Sequence record: OZ209023.1
Direction: 5' to 3' (one strand)
DNA from: Escherichia phage T4
Length of the DNA stretch: 64,000 nucleotides
Shown piece after piece: positions 24,915-30,303 of the stretch; within the stretch, counting starts at the first letter, position 1; the number at the start of each line of letters is the position of its first letter. Made by a program: the position numbers and the translations under genes. Below the pieces are notes generated by a model. It worked only from the letters and a program-made list of their open reading frames with translations. It made no database searches and was not told the origin of the DNA.

Positions 24915-25061
24915 TTAAATGACGTTTTCGATAAAATTTTGAAGCTTTGTATGAGCATCAACCATGATTTTCATTTCTTCCTTGGCAAAAGCTGTGCCTC
25001 TTTCCCGAGAAGAACATTCATAGTCAGAAACTGCATTAGCATATTCTTCAATTAGCTTCAT
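24915..25061 (-). CDS. Small hypothetical protein (48 aa)
   Basis: ATG at 25059-25061, stop at 24915-24917; MKLIEEYANAVSDYECSSRERGTAFAKEEMKIMVDAHTKLQNFIENVI; weak ribosome-binding site. Confidence 0.3.
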   Translation of the reverse strand: MKLIEEYANAVSDYECSSRERGTAFAKEEMKIMVDAHTKLQNFIENVI

Positions 25062-25077
25062 TAAAAACATCTGTTTT

Positions 25078-25272
25078 TCAGTTTTCATTATTCCACCTAA
25101 TCATTTCAAGATATTGAACTAACTTAGCTTTGGATTTATCCAAATCCCTTTTAGCTGCTTCTATACCGTCGTATGAATATCCTTCACAATGCTCAACTGC
25201 TAATTGATATGAATCTATTTCAATATCATGCGCTAATTTAATGATTTTTTCAAACTGTTCGCGTGTTAGCAT
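25078..25272 (-). CDS. Small acidic helical protein (paralog family with 25275-25457, 27269-27457, 27454-27645)
   Basis: 64 aa; N-terminal LTREQFEKIIKLAHDIE motif. Confidence 0.55.
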   Translation of the reverse strand: MLTREQFEKIIKLAHDIEIDSYQLAVEHCEGYSYDGIEAAKRDLDKSKAKLVQYLEMIRWNNEN

Positions 25273-25274
25273 AC

Positions 25275-25457
25275 TTAAACTCTCGTATTATGATCGATAA
25301 TTTCATCAAGAAACATATCTAACGCTTCTACAGCATTATTAACTTTAGCTTCAAATTCTTCAATACCTGATAAGGCAAAGTTAATGCGTTCCTCATCTGC
25401 TTTACGAATTAAAGCTACCAATTCCTTAATTTTATCCGCTTGTTCGATACTAATCAT
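25275..25457 (-). CDS. Small acidic helical protein (paralog family member)
   Basis: 60 aa from the ATG at 25455-25457; [19 protein letters not shown]. Confidence 0.5.
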   Translation of the reverse strand: MISIEQADKIKELVALIRKADEERINFALSGIEEFEAKVNNAVEALDMFLDEIIDHNTRV

Positions 25458-25645
25458 TATTCCACCACATATGAAAGAGAGAATATTGCACACGCCATGT
25501 GAGTTGCAACTTCATCACACATATTATAACGTTTCTTAAGAAGTTCTACAAGTTCTTCACTAGTAACTTCATCCATGTCGACGAAAAAATCACCATTAAT
25601 GATGACGTAGATATTTCCTTCTTGATTGAGTGCTTCAATTTTCAT
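25457..25645 (-). CDS. Hypothetical protein
   Basis: 62 aa from the ATG at 25643-25645 with AGGAGA Shine-Dalgarno; TAATG overlap with the downstream gene. Confidence 0.5.
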
Positions 25646-25673
25646 GATGTTCTCCTCTTTATCCGATGGTTGT

Positions 25674-25703
25674 ATAGTACCACAGCTCAAACGGAAAGTA
25701 AAC
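25674..25703 (-). promoter_or_regulatory. T4 early-type promoter
   Basis: Minus-strand GTTTACtttccgtttgagctgTGGTACTATAC. Confidence 0.55.
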
Positions 25704-25710
25704 CGGTAAA

Positions 25711-25736
25711 ATGAAAAAAGTCTCCCGAAGGAGACT
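25711..25736 (-). terminator. Intrinsic terminator (agtctcc-UUCG-ggagact then U6)
   Basis: Hairpin followed by UUUUUUCAUUUU on the minus strand. Confidence 0.7.
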
Positions 25737-25740
25737 AATG

Positions 25741-25962
25741 TTATTCGAGGGAAAGAAGATACTTACTCTGGTAAAACATTCCAGTAATATCATCTATCGT
25801 GCTTTGGATGGCTGGAGGCATTTCTTTATAAATGCTGTTAGATTGGTCTAGTATGCGATCAATCATTTTAATTGTGTCGGTAGGAAGTTTACTGGCATCT
25901 GGAATTGAAGGCGTGTATTTTCGACCAGAATACCCCAAATATTGCTCACCCAAATTTATCAA
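25741..25962 (-). CDS. Hypothetical protein (rI.-1 position)
   Basis: 73-aa ORF. Confidence 0.5.
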
Positions 25963-26128
25963 TCAAATCTGGCAACTCGGAAAAAATAAAATCGTATGCT
26001 TTGTGTCTAGCATAACTTTTAGTTTCAAAATGTGCAGAATGAAAATAAGCTTGTGCAGCCATTAATAAACCTAAGTATTCATCTGCCTTTGAAGGTTTTC
26101 CACTTTGTGAAAAGTCGCTGAATTTCAT
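25946..26128 (-). CDS. Hypothetical protein
   Basis: 60-aa ORF. Confidence 0.45.
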   Translation of the reverse strand: MKFSDFSQSGKPSKADEYLGLLMAAQAYFHSAHFETKSYARHKAYDFIFSELPDLIDKFG

Positions 26129-26418
26129 TCAGTCTCCAATTTAATGTTCATAATTCTAGCGTATGATTGTGCCATCTCCGCGCCTCGCTCTATACATTCA
26201 AAATCAGAAGAGCACGGGTCATTTTTATAGGTCGTTCTCATAAAACTATAGAATTGTTCAGACGATTCTACGCTTTTATTTTCAAAAAGCATATAAACGT
26301 GCCTAATACCAGATTCCATAAATTTATCAAAATGAGGATCGACATTCGCTTCAATCGATGGAGATAAAACAAATGACAATCCTAGCATGGCAAAAAGTGC
26401 TGTTGCTTTTAAGGCCAT
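26125..26418 (-). CDS. rI: Lysis-inhibition regulator RI (antiholin)
   Basis: 97 aa with N-terminal signal-anchor MALKATALFAMLGLSFVLSPSIEA; length and position as T4 RI. Confidence 0.8.
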   Translation of the reverse strand: MALKATALFAMLGLSFVLSPSIEANVDPHFDKFMESGIRHVYMLFENKSVESSEQFYSFMRTTYKNDPCSSDFECIERGAEMAQSYARIMNIKLETE

Positions 26419-26430
26419 AAAGGCCTCCTA

Positions 26431-26643
26431 TCATTTTTGTCCTGTATTTACTTTGTGCCGATGCACGGCCTTAACTTTATCAAGGTATTTTTCAAAATTT
26501 CGCAATCTAGTATAGTCTGCCGGAGATTGGTTGAGTGATACTTCTCGACGCAAAGCTGAAATGATATTTCCAACTTCCCTACGAATTTCATCTAATTGAA
26601 GAACAGTAAGATTGCGAAGTTGCTTTTCAGTTAATTGTAGCAT
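26431..26643 (-). CDS. Hypothetical protein (rI.1 position)
   Basis: 70-aa ORF. Confidence 0.5.
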
Positions 26644-26685
26644 ATATACCCCTTTAGTTAGATAAACCTATTTATAACTTTTGCA

Positions 26686-27267
26686 CTAACCGAGCTTTTT
26701 AGTTAATTCATTCCAATGTTTTCTACACAAAGAAACATAAATTTCATCACCAATACAAATTTGATTACCTTCTTTAACTGGTGTTCCATCTTCCATTAAT
26801 CGAGCTGTCATAATCGCTTTTTTACCACAATGACAAACTGCTTTTAGTTCAATAAGTTTATCTGCAATCGCTAAAAGTTCTTTAGAACCTTCAAATAATT
26901 TTCCAGCGAAATCAGTCCTTAGCCCATAAGCCATAACAGGAACATTATATGTATCAACAATTCGGCTCAATTGATGCACCTGTTCAGTTTTTAAAAACTG
27001 AGCTTCATCTACAAATACGCAATGAATATCTTTTTGTGCTTCAGCCCATTTATAGAACTCGAAAATATCCATATCATCTGTAATAATATTCGCTTCCTGC
27101 TTAATTCCAATGCGAGAAACGACTTCACAGACAGAATCGCGAGTATCAATAGCAGGCTTAAGAACTAATACACTCATTCCACGTTCTTTATAATTATGTG
27201 CAGCAGTCAAAAGAGAAGCAGATTTTCCAGCATTCATTGCTGCATAAGTAAAAATTAAACTCGCCAT
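26686..27267 (-). CDS. tk: Thymidine kinase
   Basis: 193 aa; P-loop AAMNAGKS and C-terminal zinc-cysteine cluster CHCGKK...CRKHW. Confidence 0.9.
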   Translation of the reverse strand: MASLIFTYAAMNAGKSASLLTAAHNYKERGMSVLVLKPAIDTRDSVCEVVSRIGIKQEANIITDDMDIFEFYKWAEAQKDIHCVFVDEAQFLKTEQVHQLSRIVDTYNVPVMAYGLRTDFAGKLFEGSKELLAIADKLIELKAVCHCGKKAIMTARLMEDGTPVKEGNQICIGDEIYVSLCRKHWNELTKKLG

Positions 27268-27268
27268 C

Positions 27269-27457
27269 TTAGTCCTTAGTTAAATTTTCTAAATATGTTT
27301 CTAAATCATTTTCAGCTTTATCGATAGATTTTACTAATTCGTAATATGTTTCGGCATCTCCATATTCAGAAGATATTTCAAAAGACAAATCCTTTTCTAA
27401 ACTAATAATTTCACCAACTAAAAATAATATTTCGTTCTTTTGTTCGCGAGTAATCAT
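27269..27457 (-). CDS. Small acidic helical protein (tk.1 position; paralog family member)
   Basis: 62 aa; MITREQKNEILFLVGEI. Confidence 0.55.
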   Translation of the reverse strand: MITREQKNEILFLVGEIISLEKDLSFEISSEYGDAETYYELVKSIDKAENDLETYLENLTKD

Positions 27458-27645
27458 AAGGAATTTATATAATCAATGAGTTCTTGTTCTTTATTATCGA
27501 ATTCTTTAGAAAGTTCTTCGTACTCGTTTGCGCTAAAAGGACCGCATTCATTACAAACTTTTTCCAATTCACTATTTTTATCCATAACTTCGTGGATAAG
27601 AGAAAAGAGTGTGTCTTTTTGTTCTTTGCTTAAACTCATAACCAT
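27454..27645 (-). CDS. Small acidic helical protein (tk.2 position; paralog family member)
   Basis: 63 aa; SLSKEQKDTLFSLIHEV. Confidence 0.55.
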   Translation of the reverse strand: MVMSLSKEQKDTLFSLIHEVMDKNSELEKVCNECGPFSANEYEELSKEFDNKEQELIDYINSL

Positions 27646-27863
27646 GTCACCTTTAAGCAGTATTCTTCTACATGCTGTTTACGACCTTTCTTATCAATAA
27701 AGGTATATTCAACGAATGTTCCAATGTAGTCTTTATCTACATCATGTGGACTATTAATTGGACATTTAGTGCGACAAATGCGTTCCCATTGACGAATAAT
27801 TACTGCCTTATTCTTTGGGTCATATGGATGTGGATAATGTATATTCATAATAATGGTTCCCAA
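27636..27863 (-). CDS. Hypothetical protein (tk.3 position)
   Basis: 75-aa ORF. Confidence 0.5.
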   Translation of the reverse strand: MGTIIMNIHYPHPYDPKNKAVIIRQWERICRTKCPINSPHDVDKDYIGTFVEYTFIDKKGRKQHVEEYCLKVTWL

Positions 27864-28312
27864 TCAACAATCACAATTTCTAATTTAGAGGAATATGTAT
27901 CTAAAATCCCCTCAATAATATCCCAGTTCCCTTTACCTATGCCTGCACCAATCCTAGGCATATAGATTGTAGGTTTAATCAGTTTATTTTCACCAAACTC
28001 ATTTAATTCTAACATACAATTCATTAAAGCGGAATACTCAAAATTTGGCCCTGGTTGAAATTGAGTATAAAGATTGAAGCAGTAAGCTTTATGAGTCCTA
28101 AAGTATTTTTCATAGACTGAGTAAGAACCGAGTTTAGTTACATCACCCCATTCAGTCTGTAATTTATCAGCTTCCAAAATTTTAGGGAAAGCTTTGGTTA
28201 ATTGACCCGCTACGCCTGAACCCATAGTATGAAAACAATTACATCCATGTGCAATATTTTTACCTTCAGCGAAAAGGGCGACAATATCGCCCTTGATATA
28301 TTTTACAATCAT
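27845..28312 (-). CDS. Macro-domain protein (tk.4 position)
   Basis: 155 aa; NCFHTMGSGVAG and IGAGIGKG resemble the macro-domain N-x6-GG[VLI] and G-[IV]-x-G ADP-ribose-binding loops. Confidence 0.55.
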   Translation of the reverse strand: MIVKYIKGDIVALFAEGKNIAHGCNCFHTMGSGVAGQLTKAFPKILEADKLQTEWGDVTKLGSYSVYEKYFRTHKAYCFNLYTQFQPGPNFEYSALMNCMLELNEFGENKLIKPTIYMPRIGAGIGKGNWDIIEGILDTYSSKLEIVIVDWEPLL

Positions 28313-29722: not shown

Positions 29723-30043
29723 TTATTCTTTAAATCTAATCAATTTATTCATAGACTTTGAAACTTCGGCACGAACCTCATGTAGATTTTTGAGCTGTTC
29801 AAGACGCTGCGTATAGTAAGCAATTTCATCTTCTTCGAGACAGTCCTGCGAATCTTCTTTAAGATAACGTGCATAGTCCTGGAAAGCGTTACGGACTACT
29901 TCCTGGAAGTCATCAAGACTTTGAATTTTCTTAGGAGCAACAGATACACGACGAGGGGCAGTATAATACTCATAACCAAACCCTGCGCTTAATTGAGCCA
30001 TTAGTATTTTTCCTCTGGTTGGAACACTGCACGACAAGCCCAC
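29723..30043 (-). CDS. Hypothetical protein (vs.3 position)
   Basis: 106-aa ORF. Confidence 0.5.
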
Positions 30044-30303
30044 ATACTGGCTTCTTTGAGTTTCGTTTTAGCAATAGTTAACTGATCGAGACTTTCAGCA
30101 TAATTCTTCGCGAATTCACAGTCTTCGCAATTATCTAGTGCTTCCCAGAATTCATCATATAAAGCATCAAAGATAAGTCCTAAACGAACTTCAGCGTCTT
30201 TAATAGCATTTACTTTACCGATTTTCTCTTCAGTATGTGGTTTATAACCCTTAATATCTTCAATCATATTTGACTTCCTCACCAGTACATAAATCGTATT
30301 CAA
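30001..30303 (-). CDS. Hypothetical protein (vs.4 position; candidate anti-CBASS sponge Acb2 by gene order only)
   Basis: 100-aa ORF, second after regB; assignment is positional, not sequence-verified. Confidence 0.45.

What the first reader, a model, noticed from the sequence alone, without database searches (positions are those of the whole stretch)
25078..27645. Family of four ~60-aa acidic helical proteins in two tandem pairs
ORFs 25078-25272 and 25275-25457, and the tk-downstream pair 27269-27457 and 27454-27645, share an N-terminal (S/T)-x-EQ-x-x-x-(I/L)-x-x-L-x-x-x-(I/V) motif (TREQFEKIIKLAHDIE, SIEQADKIKELVALI, TREQKNEILFLVGEI, SKEQKDTLFSLIHEV) and an acidic helical C-terminus. Small acidic phage proteins often inhibit host enzymes by mimicry.
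Basis: seen in the sequence. Interest (0 to 1): 0.45.

Follow-up and report, generated by a model that had tools for sequence, protein, structure and literature searches.

The report
T4 DUF7438 small helical-hairpin paralogs
The four small ORFs are real, related genes of phage T4 (mobD.3, mobD.4, tk.1, tk.2), with a fifth copy (mobD.2a) next to them; they belong to an already catalogued family of about 60-residue acidic two-helix proteins (Pfam DUF7438) that are made early, are dispensable in the laboratory and have no known function.

Summary
The window is phage T4. The four ORFs are the annotated genes mobD.3, mobD.4, tk.1 and tk.2, all on the minus strand. Their similarity is real. All four, plus an overlooked fifth copy (mobD.2a, 24915-25088), score above the Pfam DUF7438 threshold. 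Each also beats every one of 2000 composition-matched shuffles when its own clade is left out of the profile. So the layout is a triple plus a pair, not two pairs. AlphaFold2 predicts a plain antiparallel two-helix hairpin (pLDDT 94-96). The family is narrow: 37 clusters among 1.84 billion representatives, mostly in Tevenvirinae. It sits in two syntenic slots around tk-rI with 0-5 copies per genome. It is under purifying selection (dN/dS about 0.2). At least the mobD copies are transcribed early. All five genes are individually non-essential (HIDEN-SEQ). No fold or sequence match points to a function. My best inference, not shown, is that they are stoichiometric binding modules, perhaps Rop-like dimers, with a conserved termini end and variable loop tips. 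The mimicry idea is neither supported nor excluded. This is already known as a DUF, so interest is low to moderate.

The parts
24915..25088 (-). mobD.2a, 57 aa. It is the last gene of the tandem triple and overlaps the mobD.3 stop by 11 nt.
   Evidence: It is an ORF. Pfam DUF7438 gives 56.5 bits, E 3.7e-15, covering 1-56 of 57. It matches PHROG 2758, and PHROG 653 only weakly. The leave-clade-out HMM scores 22.1 bits against a best of 14.9 among 2000 shuffles per sequence. It is full length here because of an extra C at 24986 relative to AF158101, where it is truncated to 38 aa. It is intact in T2.
25078..25272 (-). mobD.3, 64 aa, DUF7438 paralog
   Evidence: Pfam gives 65.7 bits and PHROG 653 gives E 5.7e-26. 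The AF2 model has pLDDT 94.4 with helices at 4-29 and 34-63. The leave-out HMM scores 48.7 bits.
25275..25457 (-). mobD.4, 60 aa, DUF7438 paralog. Its start overlaps the mobD.5 stop (TAATG). The loop has 60-aa and 67-aa alleles among close relatives.
   Evidence: Pfam gives 49.6 bits. The leave-out HMM scores 30.5 bits against a best shuffle of 12.7. Loop indel alleles are seen.
27269..27457 (-). tk.1, 62 aa, DUF7438 paralog, immediately upstream of tk. Its start overlaps the tk.2 stop (ATGA).
   Evidence: Pfam gives 55.6 bits. The AF2 model has pLDDT 95.7 with helices at 4-29 and 35-60. The leave-out HMM scores 41.1 bits.
27454..27639 (-). tk.2, 61 aa, using the reference start at 27639. It is a DUF7438 paralog with a C-x-x-C in the loop.
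   Evidence: Pfam gives 65.2 bits. The leave-out HMM scores 40.2 bits. An AAGGTGA Shine-Dalgarno sequence lies 7 nt before the ATG at 27639 (read).
25674..25702 (-). Candidate early promoter of the mobD.5-mobD.4-mobD.3-mobD.2a transcription unit: TTTACT, 17 nt, TG-n-TACTAT.
   Evidence: The hexamers were read from the sequence. They match 8 of 12 positions, below the scan threshold used. A mobD.5 promoter was detected by primer extension on RNA taken 3 min after infection (PMC1702504). The exact position given here is my inference.
25719..25736 (-). Terminator-like hairpin followed by a T-run, lying between rI.-1 and the mobD.5 promoter. It separates the mobD cluster from the upstream tk-rI unit.
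   Evidence: Found by the terminator scan: 7-bp stem with 4 GC pairs, then TTTTTCATTT.
25457..25645 (-). mobD.5, 62 aa. It is not a family member but is the first gene of the same early unit.
   Evidence: It has no DUF7438 hit and belongs to PHROG 3024.

Best explanation
Shown: phage T4 carries five paralogous genes (mobD.2a, mobD.3 and mobD.4 in one run; tk.2 and tk.1 in another) of the DUF7438 family. Each encodes a protein of about 60 residues, mostly acidic, predicted with high confidence to be a single antiparallel alpha-helical hairpin.

Shown: the copies arose by tandem duplication. They occupy two syntenic slots in Tevenvirinae, one directly upstream of tk and one after rI.-1/mobD.5. 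Copy number varies from 0 to 5 per genome. They are under purifying selection, and each is individually dispensable on laboratory E. coli.

Shown in the literature for the mobD cluster: it has its own promoter that is active by 3 min after infection.

Inferred, not shown: the proteins are too small and too free of conserved polar motifs to be enzymes. They most likely act as stoichiometric binding modules. The conserved end of the hairpin, where the two termini meet (M-I/L-T-x-E-Q N-cap, I10/L13/V14/I17 and L51/Y54/L55/L58), would provide either a common interaction surface or a Rop-like dimer interface forming a four-helix bundle. The variable loop tips and exposed residues would give each paralog its own partner.

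Given early timing, dispensability, copy-number flux and counter-defence neighbours (tk.4/AdfM, vs.4/Acb2), the partners are most plausibly host or host-defence proteins.
For: Identity and paralogy:
- Pfam DUF7438 is above threshold for all five copies.
- Shuffle and leave-clade-out tests are; subfamily profile comparisons are.
- No further clear member was found in the rest of T4.

Fold:
- AF2 gives a hairpin with pLDDT 94.4 for mobD.3 and 95.7 for tk.1.

Conservation:
- The termini end is conserved and the loop is variable, both across 42 members and among close orthologs.
- Net charge is negative in 95% of members, mean -6.4.

Selection and flux:
- dN/dS is 0.15-0.24 between genera.
- Natural in-register tk.2::tk.1 chimeras exist (P0021, P0055), and mobD.4 has a loop indel polymorphism.
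- The family is narrow: 37 clusters in 1.84e9 representatives.

Expression and dispensability:
- A mobD.5 promoter is active at 3 min and its transcript is RegB-insensitive (PMC1702504).
- All five genes are classed 'Non-essential' in HIDEN-SEQ (bioRxiv 10.1101/2025.11.20.689424).
- A deletion spanning nrdC.11-mobD.3 is viable (PMC9825161).

Neighbourhood: tk.4 is the anti-DarTG2 factor AdfM.
Against: - No binding partner, oligomeric state or phenotype is known.
- The HIDEN-SEQ comparison shown found no significant conditional effect for any copy (adjusted p = 1). Redundancy among five paralogs could mask effects.
- Dimerisation could not be modelled with the tools available.
- Proximity to counter-defence genes is weak evidence, because most neighbours in a T4 early region are uncharacterised.
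- Some genomes carry a single copy (JD18), so obligate hetero-oligomers among paralogs are unlikely.
Confidence: 0.4

Rival explanations
1. DNA or nucleic-acid mimicry. The acidic helical surface would imitate a phosphate backbone and block a host DNA- or RNA-binding enzyme such as a restriction enzyme, a nuclease or RNA polymerase, as Ocr, Arn or Gam do.
For: - Net negative charge is a conserved family trait: 95% of 42 members, mean -6.4.
- tk.1, tk.2 and mobD.4 have pI 4.2-4.5.
- The mobD genes are transcribed early.
Against: - mobD.3 and mobD.2a are only mildly acidic, with net charge -4 and -2 and pI 5.0-5.3.
- The conserved positions are hydrophobic core and N-cap residues, not a fixed array of acidic residues.
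- There is no sequence or fold match to any known mimic.
- A 60-residue hairpin, about 4 nm long, is much shorter than Ocr- or ArdA-type mimics (from established knowledge).
Confidence: 0.1
2. Accessory subunits or assembly factors for the phage's own proteins. One candidate is the nucleotide-precursor complex, since one slot is always immediately upstream of tk. Another is neighbouring gene products.
For: A DUF7438 gene lies directly upstream of tk in Tequatrovirus, Mosigvirus, Dhakavirus, Moonvirus and Jiaodavirus, and weakly in Tegunavirus. The genes are tightly coupled translationally to their neighbours.
Against: - The other slot, the mobD cluster, is not next to tk.
- tk-containing relatives (Slopekvirus, Krischvirus, Muldoonvirus) lack the family near tk.
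- The genes are dispensable.
- Copy-number flux is unusual for a fixed subunit.
Confidence: 0.12
3. A Rop-like RNA-binding regulator: a hairpin homodimer that binds structured RNA and modulates phage or host RNA fate.
Against: - There is no sequence relationship to Rop; no Pfam hit other than DUF7438 reaches its threshold.
- The strongly acidic surface is unfavourable for RNA binding.
- The fold match is generic.
Confidence: 0.05
4. Largely functionless, drifting duplicates: 'filler' ORFs in a hyperplastic region, kept by hitch-hiking rather than by selection on the protein.
For: - All five are non-essential and part of the cluster can be deleted.
- Copy number varies and the family is absent from several genera.
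- A truncated remnant exists in PhAPEC2 (L010 11090-11173).
- Chimeras and truncations are frequent in databases.
Against: - dN/dS is 0.15-0.24 between genera despite near-saturated dS.
- Core and N-cap positions are conserved in relatives at 20-40% identity.
- Full-length ORFs are kept in both slots across at least five genera.
Confidence: 0.1
5. Chance resemblance between unrelated helical, acidic short ORFs.
For: Some pairs are not significant on their own: mobD.4 against tk.1 or tk.2 gives z about 1, and mobD.2a against mobD.3 or mobD.4 gives z < 0.5. Shallow subfamily profiles give only P of 0.01-0.03 for mobD.2a.
Against: - The leave-clade-out HMMs place every copy far above all composition-matched shuffles.
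- The Pfam model matches all five end to end.
- Positions are syntenic in other genera.
- The predicted fold is identical for mobD.3 and tk.1.
Confidence: 0.01

Closest known systems
Pfam PF24219 (DUF7438) / PHROG 653 (and PHROG 2758 for mobD.2a)
   Same: All five T4 proteins match the DUF7438 model over its full length and above the gathering score. Four fall in PHROG 653. These are the same proteins the family was defined on.
   Different: Nothing differs; this is membership. The family has no assigned function. PHROGs splits mobD.2a into a separate group (2758).
ColE1 Rop/Rom, a 63-aa helical hairpin that forms a homodimeric four-helix bundle
   Different: There is no sequence homology. Dimerisation and RNA binding are untested here. 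The hairpin fold is generic, with thousands of PDB matches.
Small acidic phage inhibitors and DNA mimics (T7 Ocr, T4 Arn, lambda Gam, T7 gp5.9)
   Same: They are early, small, acidic, non-essential phage proteins.
   Different: There is no sequence or structural match. Acidity is moderate in two of the five copies. The conserved residues are structural, not a charge array.
T4 Acb2 (vs.4; Pfam Acb2_Tad1_hairpin), a helical-hairpin oligomer that sponges cyclic nucleotides
   Same: It is encoded a few kb away in the same early region, and it is also a small helical phage protein that works by oligomerising and binding stoichiometrically. Its role is from established knowledge; the Pfam label was seen.
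   Different: The profile comparison of the family with T4 Acb2 shows no similarity: hhalign probability 0.2%. Acb2 is larger, at about 94 aa.
SSV1 D-63, a helix-turn-helix hairpin that dimerises into a four-helix bundle (PDB 1skv)
   Same: It is a viral protein of about 60 aa that appears among the Foldseek hits (rank 6). It has the same architecture and also has no known function.
   Different: The match is not significant (E 0.73, TM 0.5). It comes from an archaeal virus and shows no sequence relationship.

Membership tests
Pfam DUF7438 (PF24219) | Whole-protein score at or above the curated gathering score (25 bits), covering the 57-position model | tested here: met
   Scores are mobD.3 65.7, tk.2 65.2, mobD.2a 56.5, tk.1 55.6 and mobD.4 49.6 bits. 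All cover model positions 1 to 56/57.
Pfam DUF7438 (PF24219) | Homology that does not depend on the query's own clade being in the model | tested here: met
   Leave-clade-out HMMs score 22-49 bits, against 10.9-14.9 bits for the best of 2000 composition-matched shuffles per sequence.
PHROG 653 | A significant full-length match to the PHROG profile | tested here: met
   Met for mobD.3, mobD.4, tk.1 and tk.2 (E 4e-16 to 6e-26). mobD.2a matches PHROG 2758 (E 6e-36) and PHROG 653 only at E 0.02.
Rop/Rom-like hairpin dimers | An antiparallel two-helix hairpin of about 60 residues | tested here: met
Rop/Rom-like hairpin dimers | Sequence homology to Rop | tested here: not met
   No Pfam family other than DUF7438 reaches its threshold. 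The PDB profile search finds nothing at E < 0.08.
Rop/Rom-like hairpin dimers | Homodimeric four-helix bundle; RNA binding | not testable with these tools
   No multimer prediction or experiment was available.
DNA-mimic anti-restriction proteins (Ocr, Arn, ArdA) | Very strong, patterned negative surface charge | tested here: inconclusive
   Net charge ranges from -2 to -10 and pI from 4.2 to 5.3. The family mean is -6.4. Acidic positions are not individually conserved.
DNA-mimic anti-restriction proteins (Ocr, Arn, ArdA) | Sequence or fold similarity to a known mimic | tested here: not met
Acb2/Tad1 hairpin sponges | Profile similarity to T4 Acb2 (vs.4) | tested here: not met
   hhalign probability 0.2%, E 0.34.
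PHROG 4859 ('helicase loader') | A significant match to the profile | tested here: inconclusive
   Only mobD.2a (E 8e-4) and mobD.4 (E 0.013) match, and weakly. The other three copies do not match. This is likely helical-hairpin cross-talk.

The most novel reading that the evidence does not exclude
The DUF7438 copies could be a diversifying set of helical-hairpin binders. They would share one conserved docking or dimerisation end and differ in hyper-variable loop tips, each tip neutralising a different host defence or host-takeover target. The five-fold redundancy would then explain why single knock-outs show no phenotype. A possible sixth, more divergent member (pseT.1) would mean the family is larger than databases record.
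Probability: 0.25. Interest if true: 0.5.

Novelty: already known. Interest (0 to 1): 0.25.

Why it matters
T4 is the best-studied virulent phage, yet roughly half of its genes have no known function. A five-copy early family with a clean predicted fold, purifying selection and copy-number flux, sitting next to proven counter-defence genes, is a reasonable candidate for new host-interaction or anti-defence biology. The paralogy also carries a practical warning: single-gene knock-out screens such as transposon or CRISPRi screens will probably miss these genes, so a multi-copy deletion is needed. As it stands, the finding re-discovers a catalogued DUF and adds no function.

Tried and rejected
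- Direct pairwise and shallow profile comparisons did not link mobD.4 and mobD.2a convincingly. The links were resolved only after distant relatives were added.
- The PDB sequence-profile search and NCBIfam found nothing.
- The link to T4 Acb2 was tested and rejected.
- rI.1, tk.3 and mobD.2 were tested as possible remote members and rejected. The mobD.5 test in that call used a mis-framed translation and says nothing; mobD.5 has no DUF7438 hit in Pfam.
- The two extra T2 ORFs between tk.2 and tk.3 are not members.
- The domain fusions P0119 and P0122 were explored as Rosetta-stone clues. Their extra domains are orphans.
- Literature searches for the gene names or DUF7438 found no functional study. 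The T4 genome review (PMC150520) is not held.
Full report
**What is there.** The window is bacteriophage T4. The 3-kb stretch around the finding is 100% identical to OZ209057.1 and KJ477684.1, and 99.9% identical to the reference AF158101/NC_000866. The four ORFs are all on the minus strand. They are the annotated early-region genes mobD.3 (25078-25272, 64 aa), mobD.4 (25275-25457, 60 aa), tk.1 (27269-27457, 62 aa) and tk.2 (27454-27645). The reference starts tk.2 at 27639, giving 61 aa, and that ATG has an AAGGTGA Shine-Dalgarno sequence at the right distance.

**Is the similarity more than chance?** Yes.
- tk.1, tk.2 and mobD.3 are pairwise significant on the T4 sequences alone. Smith-Waterman z is 6.7-8.5, and 0 of 1000 shuffles reach the observed score.
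- mobD.4 is weak pairwise, with best z = 2.3. Shallow ortholog profiles give only P = 1.3e-3 for mobD.3 against mobD.4.
- An exhaustive profile search of 1.84 billion representatives returned 37 clusters, including relatives at 20-40% identity.
- With these added and each clade removed from the model in turn, every T4 copy scored far above all 2000 composition-matched shuffles of itself and its clade-mates. Scores were mobD.3 48.7, tk.1 41.1, tk.2 40.2 and mobD.4 30.5 bits, against best shuffles of 10.9-13.9 bits.
- Independently, all four pass the curated threshold of Pfam PF24219 (DUF7438) end to end, E 5e-13 to 5e-18. All four also fall in PHROG 653.

**A fifth copy.** The ORF at 24915-25088 (57 aa) overlaps the end of mobD.3 by 11 nt. 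It scores 56.5 bits against DUF7438 and 22.1 bits in the leave-out test, against 14.9 for the best shuffle. This is mobD.2a. In the old reference it is truncated to 38 aa by a one-base difference; the window has an extra C at 24986. It is full length in T2 and in the annotation used by the HIDEN-SEQ study. The layout is therefore a tandem triple (mobD.4, mobD.3, mobD.2a) plus a tandem pair (tk.2, tk.1). Scanning all six frames of the window and of the rest of the T4 genome found no other clear member. The only further candidate is pseT.1, discussed below.

**Anatomy.**
- AlphaFold2 predicts a single antiparallel helical hairpin for mobD.3 (helices 4-29 and 34-63, pLDDT 94.4) and for tk.1 (helices 4-29 and 35-60, pLDDT 95.7).
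The first is an N-terminal M-(I/L)-(T/S)-x-E-Q, which is a helix N-cap. The second is the a/d heptad positions of helix 1 (I10, L13, V14, I17, A20, L24).
- These pack against I44, A47, L51, Y/F54, L55 and L58 of helix 2.
- The best-conserved residues cluster at the open end of the hairpin, where the two termini meet. The loop tip is the most variable part, both across the family and among near-identical T-even orthologs.
- mobD.4 has 60-aa and 67-aa loop alleles in otherwise about 95% identical proteins.
- Net charge is negative in 95% of members (mean -6.4). The T4 copies range from -2 to -10, with pI 4.2-5.3.
- There is no conserved Cys, His or polar constellation that would suggest catalysis or metal binding. 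The C-x-x-C in the tk.2 loop is not conserved in the family.

**Genomic and evolutionary context.** The family occupies two syntenic slots in Tevenvirinae. Slot A lies directly upstream of tk, after the macro-domain gene tk.4 (with tk.3 in T4). Slot B lies after rI.-1/mobD.5.

Copy numbers (slot A + slot B) found with my HMM:

| Phage (genus) | Copies |
|---|---|
| T4 and T2 (Tequatrovirus) | 2+3 |
| Phage MT446420 | 1+3 |
| VR5 (Dhakavirus) | 1+2 |
| PhAPEC2 (Mosigvirus) | 1+1, plus a truncated remnant |
| Merlin (Moonvirus) | 2+1, the slot B copy weak |
| JD18 (Jiaodavirus) | 1 |
| TG1 (Tegunavirus) | 1, weak |
| PS2, a Slopekvirus and a Krischvirus | none within +/-9 kb of tk (the Krischvirus locus ends about 1.3 kb past tk, so slot B is only partly covered) |

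- A few metagenomic members sit in arrays of small unknown genes, some outside T4-like contexts, such as L006 with DUF551 and Lar-domain genes.
- Natural in-register tk.2::tk.1 chimeras exist: P0021 in phage UFV-AREG1, and P0055. This is the expected product of unequal recombination between adjacent paralogs.
- Between-genus ortholog pairs give dN/dS of 0.15-0.24, with dS near saturation. The proteins are therefore under purifying selection and are not drifting ORFs.

**Expression and phenotype (literature).**
- A promoter in front of mobD.5 was detected by primer extension on RNA taken 3 min after infection. Its transcript is insensitive to RegB (PMC1702504).
- I place this promoter at about 25674-25702 (TTTACT, 17 nt, TG-n-TACTAT), just downstream of a terminator-like hairpin at 25719-25736.
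- No minus-strand terminator lies between mobD.5 and mobD.2a, and the genes overlap or abut. Co-transcription and translational coupling are inferred from this.
- tk.2 and tk.1 lie in the tightly packed regB-vs-tk.4-tk.3-tk string.
- In the HIDEN-SEQ transposon study all five genes are classed 'Non-essential', and none shows a significant change in the comparison tabulated (adjusted p = 1) (bioRxiv 10.1101/2025.11.20.689424, supplement).
- A spontaneous nrdC.11-mobD.3 deletion is viable (PMC9825161). Its fusion product appears among my hits as P0045.
- The same preprint identifies the neighbour tk.4 as AdfM, an anti-DarTG2 macrodomain.
- No paper held in the library discusses tk.1, tk.2, mobD.2a-4 or DUF7438 functionally.

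**Searching for a function.**
- Foldseek against PDB gave no hit at E <= 0.001.
- BFVD returned only uncharacterised phage proteins, mostly family members.
- The PDB sequence-profile search and NCBIfam were empty.
- There is no relationship to the nearby helical-hairpin sponge Acb2/vs.4.
- Weak PHROG 'helicase loader' hits (E 8e-4 and 0.013) involve only two copies.
- Two domain fusions (P0119, P0122) carry orphan extensions that give no clue.

**Best explanation.**

*Shown:*
- a five-copy paralogous DUF7438 family of small, mostly acidic helical hairpins;
- origin by tandem duplication, and purifying selection;
- each copy individually dispensable on laboratory E. coli.

*Shown in the literature for the mobD cluster only:* a promoter that is active early.

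*Inferred:* these are non-enzymatic binding modules. The conserved termini end would serve as a common docking or dimerisation surface, giving a Rop-like four-helix bundle. The variable tips would confer paralog-specific partners, most plausibly host or host-defence proteins.

I put about 0.95 on the descriptive part and about 0.3-0.4 on the mechanistic inference.

**Rivals.**

| Rival | Probability |
|---|---|
| DNA mimicry | about 0.1 |
| Accessory subunits of phage complexes such as the Tk/dNTP machinery | about 0.12 |
| Near-neutral filler genes | about 0.1 |
| Rop-like RNA binding | about 0.05 |
| Chance resemblance | refuted |

**Comparison with known families, and novelty.** These proteins are members of Pfam DUF7438 and PHROG 653; they are among the sequences that define those families. 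The observation therefore re-discovers a catalogued family of unknown function. The additions made here are:
- the fifth T4 copy;
- the structural reading of the motif;
- the two-slot synteny with copy-number flux;
- the chimeras and loop polymorphism;
- the selection estimate;
- a candidate sixth member, pseT.1. It has 75 aa, with N-terminal MISWHQFEHLKGLIYE and C-terminal DLHDYIQSLVE. It scores 16.3 bits against 11.0 for the best of 5000 shuffles, and hhalign aligns it end to end at P 7.5e-4, but Pfam does not match it.

**Verdict.** Novelty is 'already known'. Interest is about 0.25.

Noticed in passing
window 25741-26128 (-), difference at about 25950: rI.-1 (DUF5856; labelled 'starvation-inducible transcriptional regulator' in RefSeq) is frameshifted in this T4 sequence. 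An extra C relative to AF158101 splits the 128-aa gene into ORFs of 60 aa (25946-26128) and 73 aa (25741-25962). T2 and other genera keep it intact. The HIDEN-SEQ annotation also lists only the 60-aa piece.
   Followed up: partly
window 24986: There is a one-base (C) difference from reference AF158101.6 inside mobD.2a. The reference annotates a truncated 38-aa MobD.2a, whereas the window, T2 and many T-even phages encode the full 57-aa DUF7438 protein. A third single-base difference (one A fewer) lies in the intergenic A-run near 25714.
   Followed up: yes
L004 2925-3152 (T4T pseT.1; outside the window): pseT.1 (75 aa) looks like a divergent sixth family member with a longer loop. It scores 16.3 bits against my family HMM, compared with 11.0 for the best of 5000 shuffles. 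hhalign aligns it end to end at P 7.5e-4. Pfam DUF7438 does not match it.
   Followed up: partly
proteins P0008, P0037, P0040, P0080: NCBI-annotated E. coli and Shigella assemblies name mobD.3 and mobD.4 homologs 'molybdopterin-guanine dinucleotide biosynthesis protein MobD'. This is an annotation error propagated from the T4 gene name mobD.x, where mob stands for mobile endonuclease.
   Followed up: no
P0021 (Escherichia phage UFV-AREG1) and P0055: These are natural chimeras with the N-terminal helix of tk.2 joined in register to the C-terminal helix of tk.1. They are the apparent product of unequal recombination between the adjacent paralogs, collapsing two genes into one.
   Followed up: partly
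L007 6358-6552 (Citrobacter phage Merlin, KT001915.1): A clear DUF7438 ORF (E 7e-18) lies in a gap between the annotated genes Merlin119 and Merlin118. It is not annotated in the record.
   Followed up: no
L010 11090-11173 (phage PhAPEC2): A 28-codon fragment matches only the C-terminal helix of a DUF7438 protein (identical to the end of P0109). It looks like a decayed copy in the mobD slot.
   Followed up: no
window 27845-28312 (-) tk.4; window 30001-30303 (-) vs.4: The neighbours include proven counter-defence genes. tk.4 is the macrodomain AdfM, reported in a 2025 preprint to protect T4 against DarTG2. vs.4 is the Acb2 cyclic-nucleotide sponge. tk.3 (27636-27848) is DUF7202, with no known function.
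   Followed up: partly
P0045 and P0078: These are fusion proteins joining the first 38-40 residues of mobD.3 to the C-terminus of nrdC.11. P0045 comes from a 151.8-kb T4 genome and matches the nrdC.11-mobD.3 deletion reported for genome-reduced T4 (PMC9825161).
   Followed up: partly
hit H29 (PV654520.1): A record named 'Pseudomonas phage vB_PSGBLB0006' (142 kb, host P. aeruginosa) encodes a thymidine kinase 100% identical to that of T4. This suggests a T4-type phage with a mislabelled host, or contamination.
   Followed up: no
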